DNA of 64,000 nucleotides from Puniceicoccaceae bacterium (GTDB lineage Bacteria > Verrucomicrobiota > Verrucomicrobiia > Opitutales > Oceanipulchritudinaceae): positions 1 through 64,000 of the forward strand of contig JBFOMH010000011.1 of NCBI GenBank assembly GCA_040830765.1, read 5' to 3'. Position 1 is the first letter of the stretch. Every line of letters begins with the position of its first letter. The notes beneath the pieces are model-generated. The model ran no database searches. It was not told where the DNA came from and saw only the letters and a program-made list of their open reading frames with translations. Below, one piece after another: positions 50,742 through 63,783 of the stretch. The position numbers and the translations under genes were made by a program.

Positions 50742-53700
50742 TTACATCGGTGGAGCCACTTCGAGGACCAACGCTGTCGTTGCCTGTCTGCTGCCAAGGC
50801 TCAAGGGGCCGCTGGCCGCCATGTAATCGACACCGGGTACCGGTTGGAAGACTCCGCCACCTTCCATGTAGAGGGCGACGACGACATGATAGTCGCCGGT
50901 TAAACCCGCATCCGGGAAGGCTAGGACGAGGTTCTTGGAGTCGCTGAGGATATTGTCGATATCCCCGATGCCATCCCCGTCCCCATCAGCATTGCTGATC
51001 TCCGCCAGGACTGCGGCAGGCGGTCCCATCACCGGCAGGCTGTGAGCCAGCGTGACCAGCAACTTGCTCTTGTTGCCAGTGAATCCTTCCGGCAGGGAGA
51101 TATCCACCACGAGGCTGCCTTCAGGATGGACTTGCTCCATGATGAAGGCCTTGCCGAAGGTCATGGTGGTACCGACCCAGTCATCATCACCATCATCATC
51201 CATGTCCTGCATGGCAAAATCACCCGGCAGGCGGATGTTCCTGAAGATGAGGTTCGGTTTCCATGGGGGCGGTTCCCCATGACCGGGATTCTGGTGCCAG
51301 AAACCGCGGTGGGCCGTATGGTCGGCACTGCAGACATCCATCAGGCCATCCTGGTCCATGTCGGCCAGCCACATGTCGCTGGGTGAGGTCAAGTCATCAA
51401 TGATAATTTCCTGGGCCCATGGATCCATGAGGACGCCGCCCGGATTCCAGTAGCGGGTGACTGTAGAATTGAAGATCTGGTTGGCGATGAGGTCCTTGAA
51501 GCCGTCACCATCGAAGTCATGGAACCACATGTCGGCTGCTGCCCAGTTGTCGTCATCTATGACGACCATGGGCCAGGGGTCGCCCCAGTGGCCCGGACCC
51601 GGATTGATGGCCAACCAGATCTCCCCGCGGTAGCGCGGTGGGTTGGTGTCCGGAATATCAAACATGGCATTGTAGATGATTTCCGGGTAGCCGTCGTTAT
51701 TGAGGTCGGCGCTCTTGTAGGCAAGCGTTCCCCGGATATGGGGATCGGTCGCCGGGTCCATCGGCAAGAGGTGTTCCACCCACGGGATCAGGGGAATCCC
51801 GGTATTCTCCAGCCAGCTTCCGACCGCCGAGGTTTGAAAGGCCCCGCTCAAGGCGAGGTCCTCGTCCCCGTCATTGTCGATGTCGGCGGCGACCACGATC
51901 ATCGCATTGTAATTGGTCACGGTTGGGTCCGGATTGTGCCGGACCACCGAGCGGACCCAGAGGTCACCTTCCTGCTTGTAGGAAAGAACAATACCCGAAC
52001 CTTCTTCAAGCGGAGCCAGTTCGGGGATATTGCATCCGACAATGATCATCGGCGCACCGCTATGCTCGATAACCTTGACCCCCCATGGACTGTAGAAGAG
52101 GGGATCGCCTTCCGACCAGGAGTCGAGAATTTCCGTGGATTTCACGGTCATGTCTGGATTCATGTAGTAGACACCCAGCTTGAGGACCTCCAGCGGCAAC
52201 TCGGGCTCTTCAAAGTGCGGTTCACCAACCATGATGATGTCCTTCACGCCGTCCCCATCGAGGTCGTAGACATCAAGGTAGATCGCTCCCGGGACAAATC
52301 CATCCTCACCCAGCATGTGTTCTTCCCAGAGAAGTGGCCCAGTCAGACGGTGTGGGTGGTAGGGATTGATGTCGCTTGGATTACCCTGCGGGATGAATAG
52401 GTCAAGGGCACCGAAGTCAGCTGCCTGGTCAGGATCGAAGATCAATGTCCCTGCTGAAAAGCCCCGGGCGTCGGTTGGCTCGACAACGAAGTTTGCGGCC
52501 ACGCCGGTGACAACAACGAGACCGAGCCGCTCACCTATCAGTTCCTCACCGGAGAAGGTGAAGAGGTTGCCCTCGATGGGAATGTGGATGTCAATGGGGA
52601 ATTCGGCCGGGACGGGAACGGTTTGTGTAACCACTGCCGTCGGGGTTGGCAGGGTCAGGTAGCCTTGGGGCCAGTCTTCCTCGGCGGTCTTGTAGAGCAT
52701 CAGCTTCAGATCCGGTCCGGTCACTTCCTCAGCGTGGACCGTGACACAGATGGTCCCGCTTTCACAACTTGGCCCGATGATGGGCAGACCGAGATCCACC
52801 CGGCCGAAGTCGAGGCCCGTCTCCATCGAGTAGACGGCGGTATGGGTTGAGAAACCACGCGGATCGTCCGGATCCGCTACCATGTCCGCCGAGGAGAGGA
52901 TGGCCAGGCCAAGATGGGCCCCTTGGATGGGTTTGCCGCTCAAGGGCATAATGTTGCCATCCGGCGGAATACGCAGGCGTGCCGGGAAGGATTCGGGGAC
53001 GGGCTGCGGTACGGTGATCATCCAATCCGGCATAGGCAGCCCGGTAAAGTCATCCGGCCACATGCCAGCCGACAAGTCATAGAGCATCAGCTTGAGATCA
53101 TCCTCGACGGGAACAGTCGAATCCAGCACCACCGAGAGGGCCCCGGGTGGGTTGTAGTGGGATTCCTCATACATGTCCGGGGCGGTTTTCTCGAGCGCCT
53201 CCATGATGGCGATTTTTGCCAGGAACTCCAACCCGTCCCGGAAAAGTTCCTTTCCCGGTTCAAGATCGGCAATTCCGGTCGAAGTGTAATAGACCGTCAT
53301 TCCCGAAGCGCGAACTTGGGTGACGACACCTTCTTGCGGCAGGACAGGTCGCCCCACAGCGGGATTGGCGACATCATACATCGTATGGATGGCCGCGGTC
53401 GGGAAGGCCGATGGTACCACCACGACATGGGTGTACCCCTCGTATTCAAATTCCGCCAGCGCATCACCAATTTCCGGTGTTGAGTAATTCATCCGTCCGG
53501 TCTTGGAGGCCCAGGGCAGGGACATGGCGATTTCCTCGTGAAAAGCGTCTTCCGTCTGGATTAGCTCCGAATAGATTTCCCCTTCCTGCCATCCGAACTC
53601 AGGGTAGGGAGGGACATAGGGAGTCCCGTGGGAAGCCAGCACCACCCCAATGTTGTGGTCCTGAACCCCCTCCGGAATGAATTCAGACAGGTACCAAGTC

Positions 53701-54542
53701 ATTGAGACAATGGCATCGCGGAGGCTTTTGCGCATGTAGGGGACTTCAAAGAAGGGTTCCGCGACCATCACATCCATCCCATGGGTGAGGTGCTCCACCT
53801 CTTCCATCTGGCCGGTGATTTCATCGGTATGCGTTGATTTGGCGACCAGCATGGGGACAACCACCAGTTCATCGTAATCCCCCTGGGCGATTTCGTAGAC
53901 AACATCCGGGATTCGCGGCACCTCATCCAGTAGAGCGAGAAAGACATCCACCTTGGCGCCGTGCACCTTGATATCGAGACTGTCGACATGGGCCTGTATG
54001 CTGTCGTTGTGAGGGCTGTAGTTTCCGGTCTCCGCGTAATGCATGTAAATGAGCCCGTGAAAGGCCTCCCAAGAGAAGAAACCGGGAACATCCCCGTGGG
54101 GAACAATTCCCACTTCATGGATGATGCCGTTGCCATTGATGTCGCCAAAGATGTAAGCCAGAGCAGTGGCAATTTCCTCGTAAGCCGCTGCCCACTCCGT
54201 GTACTGGAACATGGGCGGCACGCCCAGTTCAACCCCGTGCGGGCCAAATTCGGATCCGTCCGGAAAAACAATGGGAATATCACCGTCCTCGGCGGTGGCG
54301 GGCTCCCCGTGGCCAACATACATCAGGGCCACCTTGGGAATGCGGTTATTGTCTTTGGGTTTGTTGACGGCGGCGCGTGCCTTATCAGAGGCCTGCGGAG
54401 GAAGCTGGACTTCCGGAGCGTATCTGTCGGCAAGTGTCCGGGACAGCTTTGACTTGAAAGCCTTGGCTTCCAGCGTGGACAATCCGAGCGGGGTAAGCAG
54501 CAATGCGGTGGCTATGCACCATGCGAGCGTGCGGATTTTCAT
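50742..54542 (-). CDS. Large secreted protein: class II chelatase-like domain + two tandem ~120-aa domains + FG-GAP propeller + C-terminal domain
   Basis: Signal peptide; VGHGE, VVPM...H, LASHGTP, VVPSAF....HT.YD; six D.D.DG..D repeats. Confidence 0.65.
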   Translation of the reverse strand: MKIRTLAWCIATALLLTPLGLSTLEAKAFKSKLSRTLADRYAPEVQLPPQASDKARAAVNKPKDNNRIPKVALMYVGHGEPATAEDGDIPIVFPDGSEFGPHGVELGVPPMFQYTEWAAAYEEIATALAYIFGDINGNGIIHEVGIVPHGDVPGFFSWEAFHGLIYMHYAETGNYSPHNDSIQAHVDSLDIKVHGAKVDVFLALLDEVPRIPDVVYEIAQGDYDELVVVPMLVAKSTHTDEITGQMEEVEHLTHGMDVMVAEPFFEVPYMRKSLRDAIVSMTWYLSEFIPEGVQDHNIGVVLASHGTPYVPPYPEFGWQEGEIYSELIQTEDAFHEEIAMSLPWASKTGRMNYSTPEIGDALAEFEYEGYTHVVVVPSAFPTAAIHTMYDVANPAVGRPVLPQEGVVTQVRASGMTVYYTSTGIADLEPGKELFRDGLEFLAKIAIMEALEKTAPDMYEESHYNPPGALSVVLDSTVPVEDDLKLMLYDLSAGMWPDDFTGLPMPDWMITVPQPVPESFPARLRIPPDGNIMPLSGKPIQGAHLGLAILSSADMVADPDDPRGFSTHTAVYSMETGLDFGRVDLGLPIIGPSCESGTICVTVHAEEVTGPDLKLMLYKTAEEDWPQGYLTLPTPTAVVTQTVPVPAEFPIDIHIPIEGNLFTFSGEELIGERLGLVVVTGVAANFVVEPTDARGFSAGTLIFDPDQAADFGALDLFIPQGNPSDINPYHPHRLTGPLLWEEHMLGEDGFVPGAIYLDVYDLDGDGVKDIIMVGEPHFEEPELPLEVLKLGVYYMNPDMTVKSTEILDSWSEGDPLFYSPWGVKVIEHSGAPMIIVGCNIPELAPLEEGSGIVLSYKQEGDLWVRSVVRHNPDPTVTNYNAMIVVAADIDNDGDEDLALSGAFQTSAVGSWLENTGIPLIPWVEHLLPMDPATDPHIRGTLAYKSADLNNDGYPEIIYNAMFDIPDTNPPRYRGEIWLAINPGPGHWGDPWPMVVIDDDNWAAADMWFHDFDGDGFKDLIANQIFNSTVTRYWNPGGVLMDPWAQEIIIDDLTSPSDMWLADMDQDGLMDVCSADHTAHRGFWHQNPGHGEPPPWKPNLIFRNIRLPGDFAMQDMDDDGDDDWVGTTMTFGKAFIMEQVHPEGSLVVDISLPEGFTGNKSKLLVTLAHSLPVMGPPAAVLAEISNADGDGDGIGDIDNILSDSKNLVLAFPDAGLTGDYHVVVALYMEGGGVFQPVPGVDYMAASGPLSLGSRQATTALVLEVAPPM

Positions 54543-54700
54543 ATTAAATCCTCCATAGAGCTTGTTGTTGTTCAAGGGACCCGGGGGGGTCCCTTCGGCG
54601 AGATGTTTTGGGGTGTAGTCGCTTGAAAGAAACGACTGAGTCTTGATATAGGGTATTTACCTTAAGGTCAAGGTTGAATCTATTCCTTGGATCCAATGAA

Positions 54701-61734: not shown

Positions 61735-61899
61735 TTTCTTCCGTTTTTCCAGTACTGGAGATTCTTGGCCAGCGTCACGCTTGGCCAACCTGAGGGTGTG
61801 CATTGGCGACATTGACATGCTGCTGCAAATATGCATCAAATTGCACTATAAGCCCAAGAAGTCATGTCTGTTCATTTTACTCCCAGCCAGTACTCTTCG

Positions 61900-63783
61900 A
61901 TGAGAGAGTGTACCCGGATTTCATCGCGTGTCGGGAAGTGCTTTTTTTCCCTGTATTTCCTGCTGGTGCATGCGATGGTTGCGCAAGGATTGCCGGTAAC
62001 GGTCATGGATCCCGGCAACGATCCCCTGGCGTTAACCGTTGAAGCGGCAGATACAATCCTCGAGCTCAAGGAAGAAATCCTCACCGCCCGTGGGTATCCG
62101 GTGGAGGAGCAGGTGCTTGTCTACGACGGGAGCCGGCTGGCTGACAGCAGTACCATTGAGGAGAATGCAATAGTGTCCGATGGCGTCCTGTACCTGACCC
62201 TTGAGACAGGGGAGGGTATGGGGATCTCCAACGTCACCCTCGGCCCGGAGACATTGGAAATTGACACAAACCGGATGACCATGGGGATCAGCCATGTTCT
62301 TGAACATTCCCCGGAGCTTACGGATCCTGCCGTGTGGAACAGCGAGGCTGAAATTGTTGCCACATCAGCGGCGGACACCCTGACCATTCCAGCGCCGGAG
62401 GAAGCCTCTGCCTTTTACCGTGTCCGTGAACGGAATCCCCGCCCGCCGGTGACCCAGTACGAGGGTTACGAATTGATTTGGCATGACGAGTTTGAAGGAC
62501 CTGATATCAATCCGGAGAACTGGGAACATCATCTTGGCGACGGGAGTCTGTATGGACTTCCTCCGGGTTGGGGAAATGCCGAGATGCAGATCTATACCGC
62601 TGAGCCGGCAAACTCGTCCATTGTTGGTGACGGTGAAGGGAATTCGGTCTTGCTCATCCAGGGGCAGCAGGATCCCATCGACGGCGGTATAACCTCGGCG
62701 AAGTTGGTCACCCAGGACCTGCAGAGTTTCCGCTACGGGCGCATTGAGGCGCGGATCCGGTTGCCGTTTAGCAAGGGAGCCTGGCCTGCCTTCTGGATGT
62801 TGGGGATCAATCAGCCAATCGTCCCCTGGCCGGGCTGTGGCGAGATTGACATCATGGAGATGCTTGGTGGCGAAGAGGACACGATACACGGAACGGTTTT
62901 TTATATTGATGCCGACCGGCAGCCAGGTGGATCCACGGATTTCGTGACGAATCCGTCCGGCCTATACAGCGATGCCTATCACATCTATCGTATCGACTGG
63001 ACACCTACTGAAATCACTTGGTCAGTTGATGGCGTACCGTACCATACAACGCTTCTGGAAGATGACATGAAGGAGTTCCAGAGGGGCTTCTATCTTATCC
63101 TGAATCTGGCAGTGGGGGGATTCTGGCCAGGCAATCCCGATAGAACTTCCGTGTTCCCGATGCGCATGTTTGTGGACTGGGTTCGCGCCTATCGGGATGT
63201 GGATCTGGTGGATCCGGGCGAGCCGGCGTTGGATGTTGAAGAGGAAACGATCGACGTGATTATTTTCGACGGCTCTGCGGCGATCAAGGAAGGCTTTGAA
63301 CCGTTCCAGAATCTGGCCACCAAGACCTGGGGCCCGGGTGCACCAGAGGGGATGCTTTCCTTCGAAGCAGTTGACGGAACTTACAGCGTGCTGGACCAAT
63401 GGAAATCAAACGGCTATGGCGGCATGTGGTGGGTGTTCACGGATCCCCTTGATGCGAACAAGGTTGTCCCTCAGGACCTCAGCGCCTATGAGGGAGGCAA
63501 TCTGGTGATGGCCCTCAAGGTGCCTGAAACTGTTGCCTTCTATTTCGAGGTGAAGCTCGAGTCTTCAGGCCCGTTCGGCAAGGTTAACCTTCTCGATTAC
63601 ACCCCGGTGCCACTCAGCGGGGGCTTTGCCGAATACACCATCCCTCTGGCCGATTTTACTTCCCAGGGATTTGACCTCACCAAGGTGACGATTCCTCTTG
63701 GACTCTGGAATCCCCAGAGTGAGCAGGGGGTTTACGTGGATGCAGAGGTCTTGATCGACAACGTCCACTGGACGCTTCCGTAA
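61900..63783 (+). CDS. Secreted ubiquitin-like domain + FYRV module + GH16 laminarinase-type catalytic domain + C-terminal CBM-like domain
   Basis: 22/76 ungapped identity to ubiquitin; LIWHDEF, WPAFWMLG, GEIDIME, NLAVGG.W; start 61864 or 61900. Confidence 0.85.
   Translation: MRECTRISSRVGKCFFSLYFLLVHAMVAQGLPVTVMDPGNDPLALTVEAADTILELKEEILTARGYPVEEQVLVYDGSRLADSSTIEENAIVSDGVLYLTLETGEGMGISNVTLGPETLEIDTNRMTMGISHVLEHSPELTDPAVWNSEAEIVATSAADTLTIPAPEEASAFYRVRERNPRPPVTQYEGYELIWHDEFEGPDINPENWEHHLGDGSLYGLPPGWGNAEMQIYTAEPANSSIVGDGEGNSVLLIQGQQDPIDGGITSAKLVTQDLQSFRYGRIEARIRLPFSKGAWPAFWMLGINQPIVPWPGCGEIDIMEMLGGEEDTIHGTVFYIDADRQPGGSTDFVTNPSGLYSDAYHIYRIDWTPTEITWSVDGVPYHTTLLEDDMKEFQRGFYLILNLAVGGFWPGNPDRTSVFPMRMFVDWVRAYRDVDLVDPGEPALDVEEETIDVIIFDGSAAIKEGFEPFQNLATKTWGPGAPEGMLSFEAVDGTYSVLDQWKSNGYGGMWWVFTDPLDANKVVPQDLSAYEGGNLVMALKVPETVAFYFEVKLESSGPFGKVNLLDYTPVPLSGGFAEYTIPLADFTSQGFDLTKVTIPLGLWNPQSEQGVYVDAEVLIDNVHWTLP

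What the first reader, a model, noticed from the sequence alone, without database searches (positions are those of the whole stretch)
61990..62217. Eukaryote-type ubiquitin-like domain at the mature N-terminus of a secreted GH16
LPVTVMDPGNDPLALTVEAADTILELKEEILTARGYPVEEQVLVYDGSRLADSSTIEENAIVSDGVLYLTLETGEG aligns to ubiquitin without gaps at 22/76 identities. These include VE..DTI...K..I....G.P...Q.L...G..L.D..T and L.L.L. It starts right after the predicted signal peptide, lacks the RGG end and K48/K63, and is very acidic, so it is probably not conjugatable. A ubiquitin-GH16 fusion is unusual; it could be a folding or binding module, or mimicry related to algal hosts.
Basis: partly seen in the sequence, partly recalled or inferred. 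Interest (0 to 1): 0.75.

Follow-up and report, generated by a model that had tools for sequence, protein, structure and literature searches.

The report
Ubiquitin-fold domain on a secreted laminarinase
A marine bacterium's secreted enzyme for the algal sugar laminarin carries at its front end a real but divergent copy of the ubiquitin fold that cannot act as a protein tag, a rare combination whose role, probably docking the enzyme to a partner, is still untested.

Summary
Window 61990-62217 encodes exactly the 76 residues quoted, inside a 639-aa ORF (61864-63783, +). The stretch passes Pfam PF00240 (46 bits against a cut-off of 25.4) and aligns without gaps to ubiquitin at 22 of 76 positions. 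Its model (pLDDT 90.5) superposes on ubiquitin at TM 0.85-0.92 and rmsd 0.7-1.3 Å.

The domain follows a signal peptide whose A-Q-G cleavage site is conserved in the orthologues. It has no di-glycine end and keeps only Lys27, so it is an integral ubiquitin-like domain and not a modifier. After it come a roughly 70-aa beta-sandwich, a GH16 endo-beta-1,3-glucanase domain with an intact EIDIME motif, and a C-terminal beta-sandwich.

Only 12 of the 120 listed homologues have the ubiquitin-like (Ubl) domain. They form one clade, and the one named member is a Pontiella (Kiritimatiellota) MAG. Most homologues outside the clade have a lipoprotein-type N-terminus and no Ubl. The window protein's closest relative has lost the module.

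My best reading, which is inferred, is a protein-docking or tethering module standing where the lipid anchor stands in the other homologues. A passive stabilising cap and glycan binding remain open rivals.

This is a new variant of known kinds, of moderate interest.

The parts
61864..63783 (+). Whole gene, 639 aa plus stop: signal peptide, ubiquitin-like domain, small beta-sandwich, GH16 catalytic domain, C-terminal beta-sandwich.
   Evidence: The ORF is listed. Pfam finds PF00240 and PF00722. The database copy P0002 (627 aa) starts at the second Met, position 61900. The first Met is more likely the true start, because the region before Met13 aligns with the long N-regions of the orthologues.
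61864..61989 (+). Sec-type signal peptide, residues 1-42. It ends ...HAMVAQG, with cleavage predicted before Leu43.
   Evidence: The 9 orthologues with complete N-termini, plus N-truncated P0035, end a hydrophobic stretch with [A/S/G]-Q-G followed by F/L/Y-x-V-[TS]-V. The Pontiella locus L001 does the same. This was judged by eye; no predictor was run.
61990..62217 (+). Ubiquitin-family beta-grasp domain, residues 43-118. It is non-conjugatable: no di-glycine end, and K27 is the only lysine.
   Evidence: PF00240 scores 46 bits against a cut-off of 25.4. phmmer to ubiquitin aligns without gaps. The model has pLDDT 90.5. Foldseek gives TM 0.85-0.92 to ubiquitin. Identity to ubiquitin is 22 of 76.
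62218..62430 (+). Domain 2, residues 119-189: a six-stranded beta-sandwich ending FYRVRE. It has no Pfam family and is probably a spacer typical of PVC bacteria.
   Evidence: The model has pLDDT 84.5 and six strands. Foldseek gives only weak FN3/Ig-like matches, best E 0.018 and 0 at E<=1e-3. ESM Atlas look-alikes are Verrucomicrobiota/Kiritimatiellota proteins with many different catalytic domains; this is a lead only. No Pfam hit was found.
62458..63198 (+). GH16 catalytic domain, about residues 199-445, of endo-beta-1,3-glucanase (laminarinase) type.
   Evidence: PF00722 scores 83.4 bits. The best PDB matches are 2vy0, 2hyk, 3atg and 3azx (endo-beta-1,3-glucanases/laminarinases), E 6e-59 to 5e-54, over residues 10-256 of the fragment that starts at residue 190.
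62842..62859 (+). Catalytic motif E-I-D-I-M-E of GH16.
   Evidence: Translation shows it. E, D and E are invariant in all 15 aligned sequences, as E315, D317 and E320 in P0002 numbering. Reading these three as the catalytic residues of GH16 is recalled knowledge.
63214..63780 (+). C-terminal beta-sandwich, residues 451-639, shared with the Bacteroidota homologues. It is possibly glycan-binding.
   Evidence: It makes a weak match to PF18559 Exop_C (galactose-binding domain-like): 18.8 bits, below the 26.1 cut-off. The precomputed label PF26113 appears on all 120 listed homologues, but that model is not in the local Pfam copy, so I could not name it.

Best explanation
SHOWN. The gene encodes a secreted, multi-modular endo-beta-1,3-glucanase (GH16, laminarinase type). 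The mature protein begins with a true but divergent member of the ubiquitin family, about 29% identical to ubiquitin with the same fold. This is an integral ubiquitin-like (Ubl) domain and not a modifier: it has no di-glycine end, it is covalently continuous with the next domain, and all lysines except the structural K27 are gone. The Ubl and the beta-sandwich behind it occur together only in one small clade of these enzymes. The one named member is from Pontiella (Kiritimatiellota).

INFERRED (about 0.4). The Ubl is a protein-protein docking head held out on the beta-sandwich spacer. It would keep the enzyme at the cell surface or on a partner protein. It would thus do the job that the N-terminal lipid anchor, with or without an Ig-like spacer, does in the Bacteroidota homologues. 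The partner is unknown.

The origin is also inferred: an old acquisition of a eukaryote-type ubiquitin-family domain, followed by long divergence. It is not a recent transfer.
For: IDENTITY
- PF00240 scores above its cut-off.
- The phmmer alignment to ubiquitin has no gaps.
- The model has pLDDT 90.5, and at least 500 PDB beta-grasp/ubiquitin matches are led by ubiquitin at TM 0.85-0.92.
- K27, D52, G35, P37, Q41, L43, G47 and L50 are retained.

SECRETION
- The A-Q-G cleavage site is conserved in the 9 orthologues with complete N-termini, in N-truncated P0035 and in L001.

ENZYME
- The best solved relatives are laminarinases.
- The EIDIME motif is intact.

A MODULE, NOT PART OF THE CATALYTIC FOLD
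- In a tree of 55 catalytic regions, the 11 Ubl-bearing rows plus P0010 form one clade with SH-aLRT 100.
- P0010 is 72% identical in the core and is sister to the window protein with support 100. It has neither the Ubl nor domain 2.

THE PLACE OF THE ANCHOR
- 35 of the 43 rows outside the clade match a lipobox pattern at the N-terminus, followed within a few residues by GH16.
- A Bacteroidota laminarin-PUL GH16_3 is described as a lipoprotein signal, then an Ig-like module, a CBM and GH16_3, tethered to the outer membrane (bioRxiv 10.1101/2023.09.07.556657, abstract and section 5 read).

CONSTRAINT ON THE UBL
- Mean pairwise identity among 9 full-length members is 0.69 for the Ubl. It is 0.70 for the C-terminal domain, 0.78 for GH16 and 0.51 for domain 2.
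- Positions 44, 68 and 70 of the ubiquitin beta-sheet face are invariant in the family, as V, Y and T, and R49 is nearly so. That these positions form ubiquitin's main recognition face is recalled knowledge.

NOT A RECENT TRANSFER OR A CHIMERA
- GC is uniform: Ubl 0.583, gene 0.556, window 0.566.
- Twelve independent clusters from several sources share the architecture.
Against: - No partner is known, and none could be looked for. The only outside locus, L001, ends inside the gene, and its upstream genes differ from the window's.
- The argument from the lipid anchor is positional analogy only.
- The loss of the module in P0010 shows that the enzyme lineage can do without it.
- The lipobox count rests on a regular expression of my own. 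It also gave one false positive inside the clade (P0008).
- The tree used the quick method, with SH-aLRT support only.
- The conserved tyrosines (Y36, Y68) would fit sugar stacking as well as protein contacts.
Confidence: 0.4

Rival explanations
1. Passive N-terminal cap. The Ubl has no specific partner. Its fast-folding, very stable, acidic fold improves solubility and folding yield after export, or protects the N-terminus from proteases, as ubiquitin or SUMO tags do in the laboratory.
For: The domain is the first thing at the mature N-terminus. It is acidic in every member, net -3 to -13. The use of N-terminal SUMO/ubiquitin tags for expression is established practice; one example is a His-SUMO tag in the methods passage of PMC11467351.
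Against: The sister protein P0010, 72% identical in the core, has no such cap. The homologues outside the clade also lack it. A mere cap would not need invariant residues on the beta-sheet face, nor conservation equal to that of the C-terminal domain. Which family positions are surface-exposed is inferred from ubiquitin, not measured.
Confidence: 0.25
2. The Ubl is a new kind of carbohydrate-binding module: a beta-grasp domain that binds laminarin or another algal glycan and brings the enzyme to its substrate.
For: Accessory modules of GH16_3 laminarinases are usually CBMs (bioRxiv 10.1101/2023.09.07.556657, abstract and section 5). Other beta-grasp families in secreted bacterial proteins bind soluble ligands (PMC1796856, abstract in search listing; PMC1949818, passages). 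Y36 and Y68 are invariant.
Against: The domain has no tryptophan. In the passages found of PMC1949818, the word 'carbohydrate' occurs 0 times. The protein already has a C-terminal beta-sandwich with a weak galactose-binding-like match.
Confidence: 0.12
3. Mimicry aimed at eukaryotes. The exposed Ubl engages ubiquitin-binding proteins of algae or other hosts.
For: The domain belongs to a family that is otherwise overwhelmingly eukaryotic. Of the 10 nearest structural clusters in the ESM Atlas, 8 are listed as 95-100% Eukaryota, 1 has no taxon recorded and 1 is bacterial. The substrate, laminarin, is algal.
Against: The enzyme is extracellular, while ubiquitin receptors are intracellular. The canonical recognition positions are changed throughout the family: 8 mostly Pro, 44 Val, 68 Tyr, 70 Thr. 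Identity to ubiquitin is only 19-24 of 76 across the family. There is no di-glycine end.
Confidence: 0.05
4. A BfUbb-like antagonistic factor. The Ubl is cut off after secretion and acts on competing bacteria, as the secreted ubiquitin homologue of Bacteroides fragilis does.
For: BfUbb is a secreted bacterial ubiquitin homologue that antagonises related strains (PMC5705921 and PMC11467351, abstracts in search listing). The model superposes on BfUbb (8hm3_A) at TM 0.88.
Against: BfUbb stands alone and is 63% identical to human ubiquitin (PMC3352274, abstract in listing). Here the domain is fused, about 29% identical to ubiquitin and 22% to BfUbb. No conserved cleavage motif is seen at the Ubl/domain 2 junction.
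Confidence: 0.05
5. Artefact: a chance resemblance, or a chimeric assembly of a eukaryotic ubiquitin gene with a bacterial GH16 gene.
For: None was found.
Against: The Pfam score is well above its cut-off and the fold is confirmed. The same architecture occurs in 12 clusters from JGI, ENA and Logan sources and in a Pontiella MAG. The ORF is continuous with uniform GC.
Confidence: 0.01

Closest known systems
Eukaryotic ubiquitin and integral ubiquitin-like (UBL) domains, such as the N-terminal UBL of Rad23/Dsk2 (Pfam PF00240)
   Same: Same family by profile score and the same fold. Like Rad23-type UBLs, it is an N-terminal, non-cleaved, non-conjugated domain of a larger protein. NCBIfam's rad23 model matches only its N-terminal UBL part, well below its cut-off (33.8 bits against 207.3).
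   Different: It is bacterial, exported behind a signal peptide, and fused to a glycoside hydrolase. The recognition-face residues are changed. No ubiquitin system is implied.
BfUbb / BoUbb, the secreted ubiquitin homologues of Bacteroides
   Same: Both are bacterial proteins of the eukaryote-type ubiquitin family exported with a type I signal peptide (PMC11467351 passages; abstracts in listing). The fold match to 8hm3_A has TM 0.88.
   Different: BfUbb stands alone, is 63% identical to human ubiquitin and acts as an antibacterial toxin. This domain is fused to an enzyme, about 29% identical to ubiquitin and 22% to BfUbb, and comes from another phylum. [quoted passage not shown]
Multi-modular GH16_3 laminarinases of marine Bacteroidota, such as Cf-GH16_3 of Christiangramia forsetii
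   Same: Both have a GH16 laminarinase-type catalytic core. In both, an N-terminal targeting element is followed by a small beta-sandwich spacer and then the catalytic module (bioRxiv 10.1101/2023.09.07.556657, section 5). The nearest homologues outside the clade share the core and the C-terminal domain at 42-50% identity.
   Different: Those enzymes are lipoproteins with a lipobox cysteine. This one has a type I signal peptide and a Ubl instead. Its spacer is a PVC-type module and not the Bacteroidota Ig-like one.
Other secreted bacterial beta-grasp domains (SLBB, fasciclin, superantigen/streptokinase, Ig-binding domains)
   Same: They share the general beta-grasp fold and occur in secreted multi-domain bacterial proteins (PMC1949818 passages; PMC1796856 abstract).
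   Different: Those are separate beta-grasp families. This domain scores as the ubiquitin family proper, PF00240 and Rad60-SLD.

Membership tests
Ubiquitin family (Pfam PF00240) | Profile score above the curated gathering threshold | tested here: met
   The domain alone scores 46.0 bits and the whole protein 40.4 bits, against a cut-off of 25.4.
Ubiquitin family (Pfam PF00240) | Beta-grasp fold superposable on ubiquitin | tested here: met
   The model has pLDDT 90.5 with strand-strand-helix-strand-strand order. Foldseek gives TM 0.85-0.92 and rmsd 0.7-1.3 Å over 71 columns to ubiquitin chains.
Conjugatable ubiquitin-like modifiers (ubiquitin, NEDD8, SUMO) | Free or processable C-terminal di-glycine | tested here: not met
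   The domain ends T-G-E-G and continues into domain 2. The family consensus there is x-D-x-G-L-P-L, with no GG.
Conjugatable ubiquitin-like modifiers (ubiquitin, NEDD8, SUMO) | Chain-forming lysines (K48, K63 and others) | tested here: not met
   Positions 48 and 63 are Ser. K27 is the only lysine in the window domain and in all 9 orthologue domains examined.
BfUbb-like secreted bacterial ubiquitin | Stand-alone ~76-aa ubiquitin with high identity to eukaryotic ubiquitin (63%) | tested here: not met
   The domain is fused within a 639-aa enzyme. Identity to ubiquitin is 22 of 76 and to 8hm3_A 22%. The 63% figure comes from the abstract of PMC3352274.
BfUbb-like secreted bacterial ubiquitin | Export by a type I signal peptide | tested here: inconclusive
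   A hydrophobic N-terminus with a conserved A-Q-G site is seen by eye in the window protein and its orthologues. No predictor was run and there are no experimental data.
GH16 endo-beta-1,3-glucanase (laminarinase type, GH16_3-like) | GH16 profile match and the E-x-D-x-x-E catalytic motif | tested here: met
   PF00722 scores 83.4 bits. EIDIME lies at 62842-62859, and its E, D and E are invariant in 15 of 15 aligned sequences.
GH16 endo-beta-1,3-glucanase (laminarinase type, GH16_3-like) | Closest characterised relatives are beta-1,3-glucanases; CAZy subfamily assignment | tested here: inconclusive
   The top PDB matches are all endo-beta-1,3-glucanases/laminarinases, E 6e-59 to 5e-54. No CAZy subfamily tool was available, so 'GH16_3' is an inference.
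GH16 endo-beta-1,3-glucanase (laminarinase type, GH16_3-like) | Hydrolysis of laminarin | not testable with these tools
   This needs an enzyme assay.
Outer-membrane lipoprotein GH16 of Bacteroidota PULs | Lipobox with an invariant Cys at the cleavage site | tested here: not met
   The window protein and its orthologues end the signal with A-Q-G followed by L/F/Y, with no Cys at +1. By contrast, 35 of 43 rows outside the clade match a lipobox pattern.

The most novel reading that the evidence does not exclude
A marine Kiritimatiellota lineage captured a eukaryote-type ubiquitin-family domain, perhaps from an alga. It now uses the domain outside the cell as a docking head, comparable to a dockerin, that fixes a laminarinase to a surface receptor or to an enzyme assembly. 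This would be the first ubiquitin-family fold serving as an extracellular accessory module of a carbohydrate-active enzyme. It would also be a protein-based alternative to lipid anchoring in a phylum without SusC/D-type systems. That Kiritimatiellota lack such systems is recalled, not tested here.
Probability: 0.2. Interest if true: 0.7.

Novelty: new variant of a known kind. Interest (0 to 1): 0.55.

Why it matters
Eukaryote-type ubiquitin is almost unknown in bacteria. The textbook exception is the stand-alone BfUbb toxin of Bacteroides. Here a second, independent and much more divergent bacterial use of the family appears, in a different phylum. It is exported and welded to a polysaccharide-degrading enzyme.

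If the domain is a docking or tethering device, it would show how Kiritimatiellota hold enzymes at the cell surface. These bacteria are important degraders of algal glycans in the sea and are poorly understood. It would also add a fold to the catalogue of accessory modules of carbohydrate-active enzymes.

If it is only a stabilising cap, it is a natural counterpart of the laboratory ubiquitin/SUMO tag. Either way, the claim can be tested with a few constructs.

Tried and rejected
1. Exhaustive profile search with the N-terminal module A2. It gave 7471 hits at E<=1e-3. The 150 listed were 3 family members plus 147 proteins with 4-21 ubiquitin-like stretches, ranked by summed score (>=148 bits). 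Any single-domain relative scoring 50-148 bits was therefore invisible. I re-scored the listed proteins with a Ubl-only HMM. The best single domain outside the family scored 42.9 bits, against 108-146 bits inside it. The question whether other bacterial proteins carry this Ubl is not settled.

2. Word-indexed searches for other architectures: 3 hits, all family; 11 family members plus P0270. P0270 is a 440-aa protein with a canonical PF00240 domain of 96 bits and is probably unrelated to the fusion. The tool itself calls such blanks weak evidence.

3. Genome scan. Of 44 pattern matches, 1 was confirmed: a Pontiella MAG contig that ends 54 residues into the match. It gives no downstream context, and its upstream genes are not shared with the window.

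4. Complex prediction of the Ubl against the rest of the protein. The result was no verdict: scores 0.30, 0.35 and 0.02 against a mark of 0.32. It counts neither for nor against intramolecular docking.

5. ESM Atlas by features for the Ubl gave no usable hit.

6. tblastn of the N-terminal module against plasmids and phages gave no match.

7. The PADLOC scan gave nothing relevant, only a 12-bit chance hit, so I see no link to defence-system Ubls.

8. A twin-arginine (Tat) signal was considered, because several orthologues have R-R in a long N-region. I rejected it as a family feature. The window protein, P0003, P0006, P0012 and P0013 lack the pair, and where it is present it lies about 11 residues before the hydrophobic core.

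9. The promoter/terminator scan around the gene found no more than shuffled sequence gives.

10. Literature. No paper combined 'ubiquitin-like' with 'Kiritimatiellota' (0 papers) or ubiquitin, GH16, N-terminal and Verrucomicrobi* (0 papers). The search for 'ubiquitin-like domain', glycoside hydrolase, signal peptide and bacterial gave 1 paper, on a fungus. The PVC laminarin paper PMC13526803 contains 'ubiquitin' 0 times.
Full report
WHAT IS THERE

The window carries an ORF at 61864-63783 on the + strand, 639 aa. Pfam places four things on the protein:
- PF00240 (ubiquitin family) at residues 56-114, 40.4 bits against a curated cut-off of 25.4.
- Rad60-SLD, 30.5 bits against a cut-off of 23.8.
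- PF00722 (GH16), 83.4 bits, at residues 286-440.
- A weak galactose-binding-like match near the C-terminus.

On its own, the 76-residue stretch scores 46.0 bits (E 4.5e-12) against PF00240. NCBIfam sees only the N-terminal UBL part of its rad23 model and GH16 glucanase models, all below their cut-offs.

IS THE UBIQUITIN RESEMBLANCE REAL?

Yes.
- phmmer against all PDB sequences finds 415 sequences at E<=10. Monomeric ubiquitins score about 5e-7 to 1e-5, and residues 12-72 align to 12-72 without a gap.
- An AlphaFold2 model built on 12 sequences has mean pLDDT 90.5 and the order strand, strand, helix, strand, strand.
- Foldseek against PDB returns at least 500 matches at E<=1e-3. The top ones are ubiquitin chains at TM 0.85-0.92, rmsd 0.7-1.3 Å over 71 columns and 30-32% identity. 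NEDD8 (1ndd) comes at 27% identity, and the Bacteroides homologue BfUbb (8hm3_A) at rank 23 with 22%.

IT IS A DOMAIN, NOT A MODIFIER

The stretch ends T-G-E-G and runs directly into the next domain. The family consensus at that point is x-D-x-G-L-P-L, with no di-glycine. Positions 48 and 63 are serine. K27 is the only lysine in the window domain and in all nine orthologue domains I examined. K27 and D52 are invariant in the family. From memory, this pair forms a buried salt bridge in ubiquitin, which would explain why this one lysine survives.

The window domain is very acidic: 16 Asp/Glu against 3 Lys/Arg. The orthologues are only net -3 to -9, so extreme acidity is not a family trait.

SECRETION

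The residues before the domain are a basic N-region, a hydrophobic core and the sequence A-Q-G. The nine orthologues with complete N-termini, and N-truncated P0035, end their hydrophobic stretch with [A/S/G]-Q-G followed by F/L/Y-x-V-[T/S]-V. The Pontiella locus L001 does so too. I could not run a signal-peptide predictor, so this rests on inspection and conservation.

The first ATG (61864) is the likelier start. The residues before Met13 align with the long N-regions of the orthologues. The database copy P0002 starts at Met13.

THE REST OF THE PROTEIN

Residues 119-189 model as a six-stranded beta-sandwich with pLDDT 84.5. It has only weak FN3/Ig-like structural matches, best E 0.018 and none at E<=1e-3, and no Pfam family. 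ESM Atlas look-alikes of this piece are Verrucomicrobiota and Kiritimatiellota proteins that carry many different catalytic domains: GDSL lipase, GH44, peptidases, beta-helix. This is a lead, not a test. It suggests a spacer module typical of PVC bacteria.

The catalytic part is closest to solved endo-beta-1,3-glucanases/laminarinases (2vy0, 2hyk, 3atg, 3azx; E 6e-59 to 5e-54). It has the E-I-D-I-M-E motif at 62842-62859, whose E, D and E are invariant in 15 of 15 aligned sequences. The last ~190 residues are a domain shared with the Bacteroidota homologues, with a sub-threshold galactose-binding-like match.

HOW COMMON IS THE FUSION?

A full-length search listed 120 homologues, out of 2018 with E<=0.001 among 8000 scored candidates. 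Twelve of the 120 carry PF00240: P0002-P0009, P0011-P0013 and P0035. They are 53-64% identical to the window protein, apart from P0002, which is its own copy. The other 108 have only the GH16 core and the C-terminal domain, and are about 42-50% identical over about 70% of the query; P0010, at 71%, is the exception.

Other searches added little:
- Searches with the Ubl alone, or with the Ubl-plus-domain-2 alignment, among longer proteins found only family members and one unrelated protein with a canonical ubiquitin domain.
- A scan of one genome per species (185,579 species) confirmed a single locus, a Pontiella sp. MAG (Kiritimatiellota, Pontiellaceae). That contig ends inside the gene.
- The family's clusters carry no organism names.
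- No other copy of either N-terminal domain is in the window.

The window's other genes fit a marine polysaccharide degrader of this kind: sulfatases, GH78 and GH106 rhamnosidases, GH88 and GH5. I did not determine the window's own taxon.

HISTORY OF THE MODULE

I built a tree of the catalytic plus C-terminal regions of 55 homologues with quick IQ-TREE (SH-aLRT support only). I started from the 59 proteins P0002-P0061 without P0035. Four more were dropped because my motif anchor did not find them: P0022, P0032, P0043 and P0057.

The tree puts the 11 Ubl-bearing rows and P0010 in one clade with support 100, on a long stem of 0.41. P0010 is sister to the window protein with support 100 and 72% identity. 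It has neither the Ubl nor domain 2, but carries a ~55-residue tryptophan-rich C-terminal extension. The simplest reading is one gain of the module and one later loss. The catalytic core therefore does not need the Ubl.

Outside the clade, 35 of 43 rows match a lipobox pattern at the N-terminus, followed almost at once by the GH16 domain. The pattern is my own regular expression, and it also hit P0008 inside the clade, which I judge a false positive.

A preprint on a Bacteroidota laminarin locus describes its GH16_3 as a lipoprotein signal, then an Ig-like module, a CBM and the catalytic module, tethered to the outer membrane (bioRxiv 10.1101/2023.09.07.556657; abstract and section 5 read).

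CONSTRAINT

Among nine full-length members, mean pairwise identity is 0.69 for the Ubl, 0.51 for domain 2, 0.78 for GH16 and 0.70 for the C-terminal domain. The Ubl is thus conserved about as well as a working domain.

Sixteen of its columns are invariant. Half are the same as in ubiquitin: V5, E18, K27, Q41, L43, D52, I61 and L67. Half are family-specific: V3, G9, P12, R34, Y36, V44, Y68 and T70. Positions 44, 68 and 70, with position 8, form ubiquitin's main recognition face (recalled). Here they are fixed but changed. This argues for a conserved interaction of a different specificity, and against binding to canonical ubiquitin receptors.

ORIGIN

GC content is uniform: Ubl 0.583, gene 0.556, window 0.566, and GC3 is also similar. 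Identity to ubiquitin is only 19-24 of 76 across the family. This is not a recent transfer like BfUbb, which is 63% identical to human ubiquitin (PMC3352274, abstract in listing).

The nearest structural clusters in the ESM Atlas are mostly eukaryotic: of 10, 8 are listed as 95-100% Eukaryota, 1 has no taxon recorded and 1 is bacterial. I could not test a donor. The exhaustive search returned unlabelled proteins and was swamped by polyubiquitin-like repeats.

MECHANISM

Shown: the protein is a secreted laminarinase-type GH16 with an integral, non-conjugatable ubiquitin-family domain at its mature N-terminus. The domain is modular, clade-restricted and conserved.

Inferred (about 0.4): the Ubl is a protein-docking head on a beta-sandwich stalk. 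It occupies the position that a lipid anchor, with or without an Ig-like spacer, occupies in the Bacteroidota enzymes, and so keeps the enzyme at the cell surface or on a partner.

Rivals:
- A passive solubility or stability cap (0.25).
- A beta-grasp glycan-binding module (0.12).
- Mimicry of eukaryotic ubiquitin (0.05).
- A released BfUbb-like factor (0.05).
- An artefact (0.01).

A complex prediction of the Ubl against the rest of the protein gave no verdict, and I do not count it either way.

COMPARISON AND NOVELTY

The domain is a member of the ubiquitin family by profile and fold. It fails the tests for a conjugatable modifier and for a BfUbb-like stand-alone protein. The enzyme part is an ordinary laminarinase-type GH16.

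The combination is what is new. My searches found no paper on it:
- Searches returned 0 papers.
- One search returned 1 paper, on a fungus.
- PMC13526803, on laminarin-degrading PVC bacteria, contains 'ubiquitin' 0 times.

[quoted passage not shown] Secreted bacterial beta-grasp domains reviewed earlier belong to other families (PMC1949818 passages; PMC1796856 abstract).

I rate the finding a new variant of known kinds, with interest 0.55. It is rare and clean, and a few constructs would test it, but its function is unknown and it is confined to a small clade.

WHAT STAYED UNCHECKED

- Single-domain relatives of intermediate score in the exhaustive library.
- Supplements of the papers cited, which I did not open.
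- Any prediction of the signal peptide by a dedicated tool.

Noticed in passing
P0010 (homologue, 534 aa); compare window 61864-63783: The window protein's closest relative (72% identical in the core, sister with support 100) lacks the Ubl and domain 2. It ends instead in a ~55-residue tryptophan-rich extension with no Pfam match. This may be an alternative targeting or anchoring module.
   Followed up: partly
window 62218-62430: Domain 2, a ~70-aa six-stranded sandwich ending FYR[IV]RE, has no Pfam family. Its ESM Atlas look-alikes are many Verrucomicrobiota/Kiritimatiellota proteins with unrelated catalytic domains. It may be an undescribed accessory module specific to PVC bacteria.
   Followed up: partly
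signal peptides of orthologues P0004, P0007, P0011 and L001:2984-3457: The N-regions are unusually long (about 25 residues) and conserved, with a motif like S-x-R-R-V-E-F-V-S-S-R-C-W-R before the hydrophobic core. The window protein has a related stretch without the R-R pair. I do not consider it a consistent Tat signal.
   Followed up: partly
window 23541-46957: A cluster of genes for GH88, two GH78 and one GH106 rhamnosidases, BNR-repeat proteins, GH5 and two sulfatases. It suggests use of a sulfated, rhamnose-containing algal polysaccharide. The GH16 gene lies about 15 kb away, behind a LysR regulator and a DUF4440 protein.
   Followed up: no
window 50742-54575 (-): A 1277-aa ORF combines ferrochelatase/CbiX-like and FG-GAP repeat matches, which is an odd pairing.
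   Followed up: no
L001:1906-2820: In the Pontiella MAG contig, the gene upstream of the Ubl-GH16 encodes a 304-aa protein with a hydrophobic N-terminus and an E-L-D-F-E-F stretch reminiscent of GH16-like hydrolases. It has no counterpart upstream in the window.
   Followed up: no
P0035 (homologue, 382 aa): This family member follows the others through the Ubl, domain 2 and half of GH16. It then diverges into unrelated sequence, as after a frameshift or a truncated contig. I left it out of the tree.
   Followed up: no
ESM Atlas neighbours of window residues 43-118: One structural neighbour is a diatom cluster in which a ubiquitin domain is fused to nickel superoxide dismutase (PF09055). This is another marine example of ubiquitin fused N-terminally to an enzyme, here eukaryotic.
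   Followed up: no
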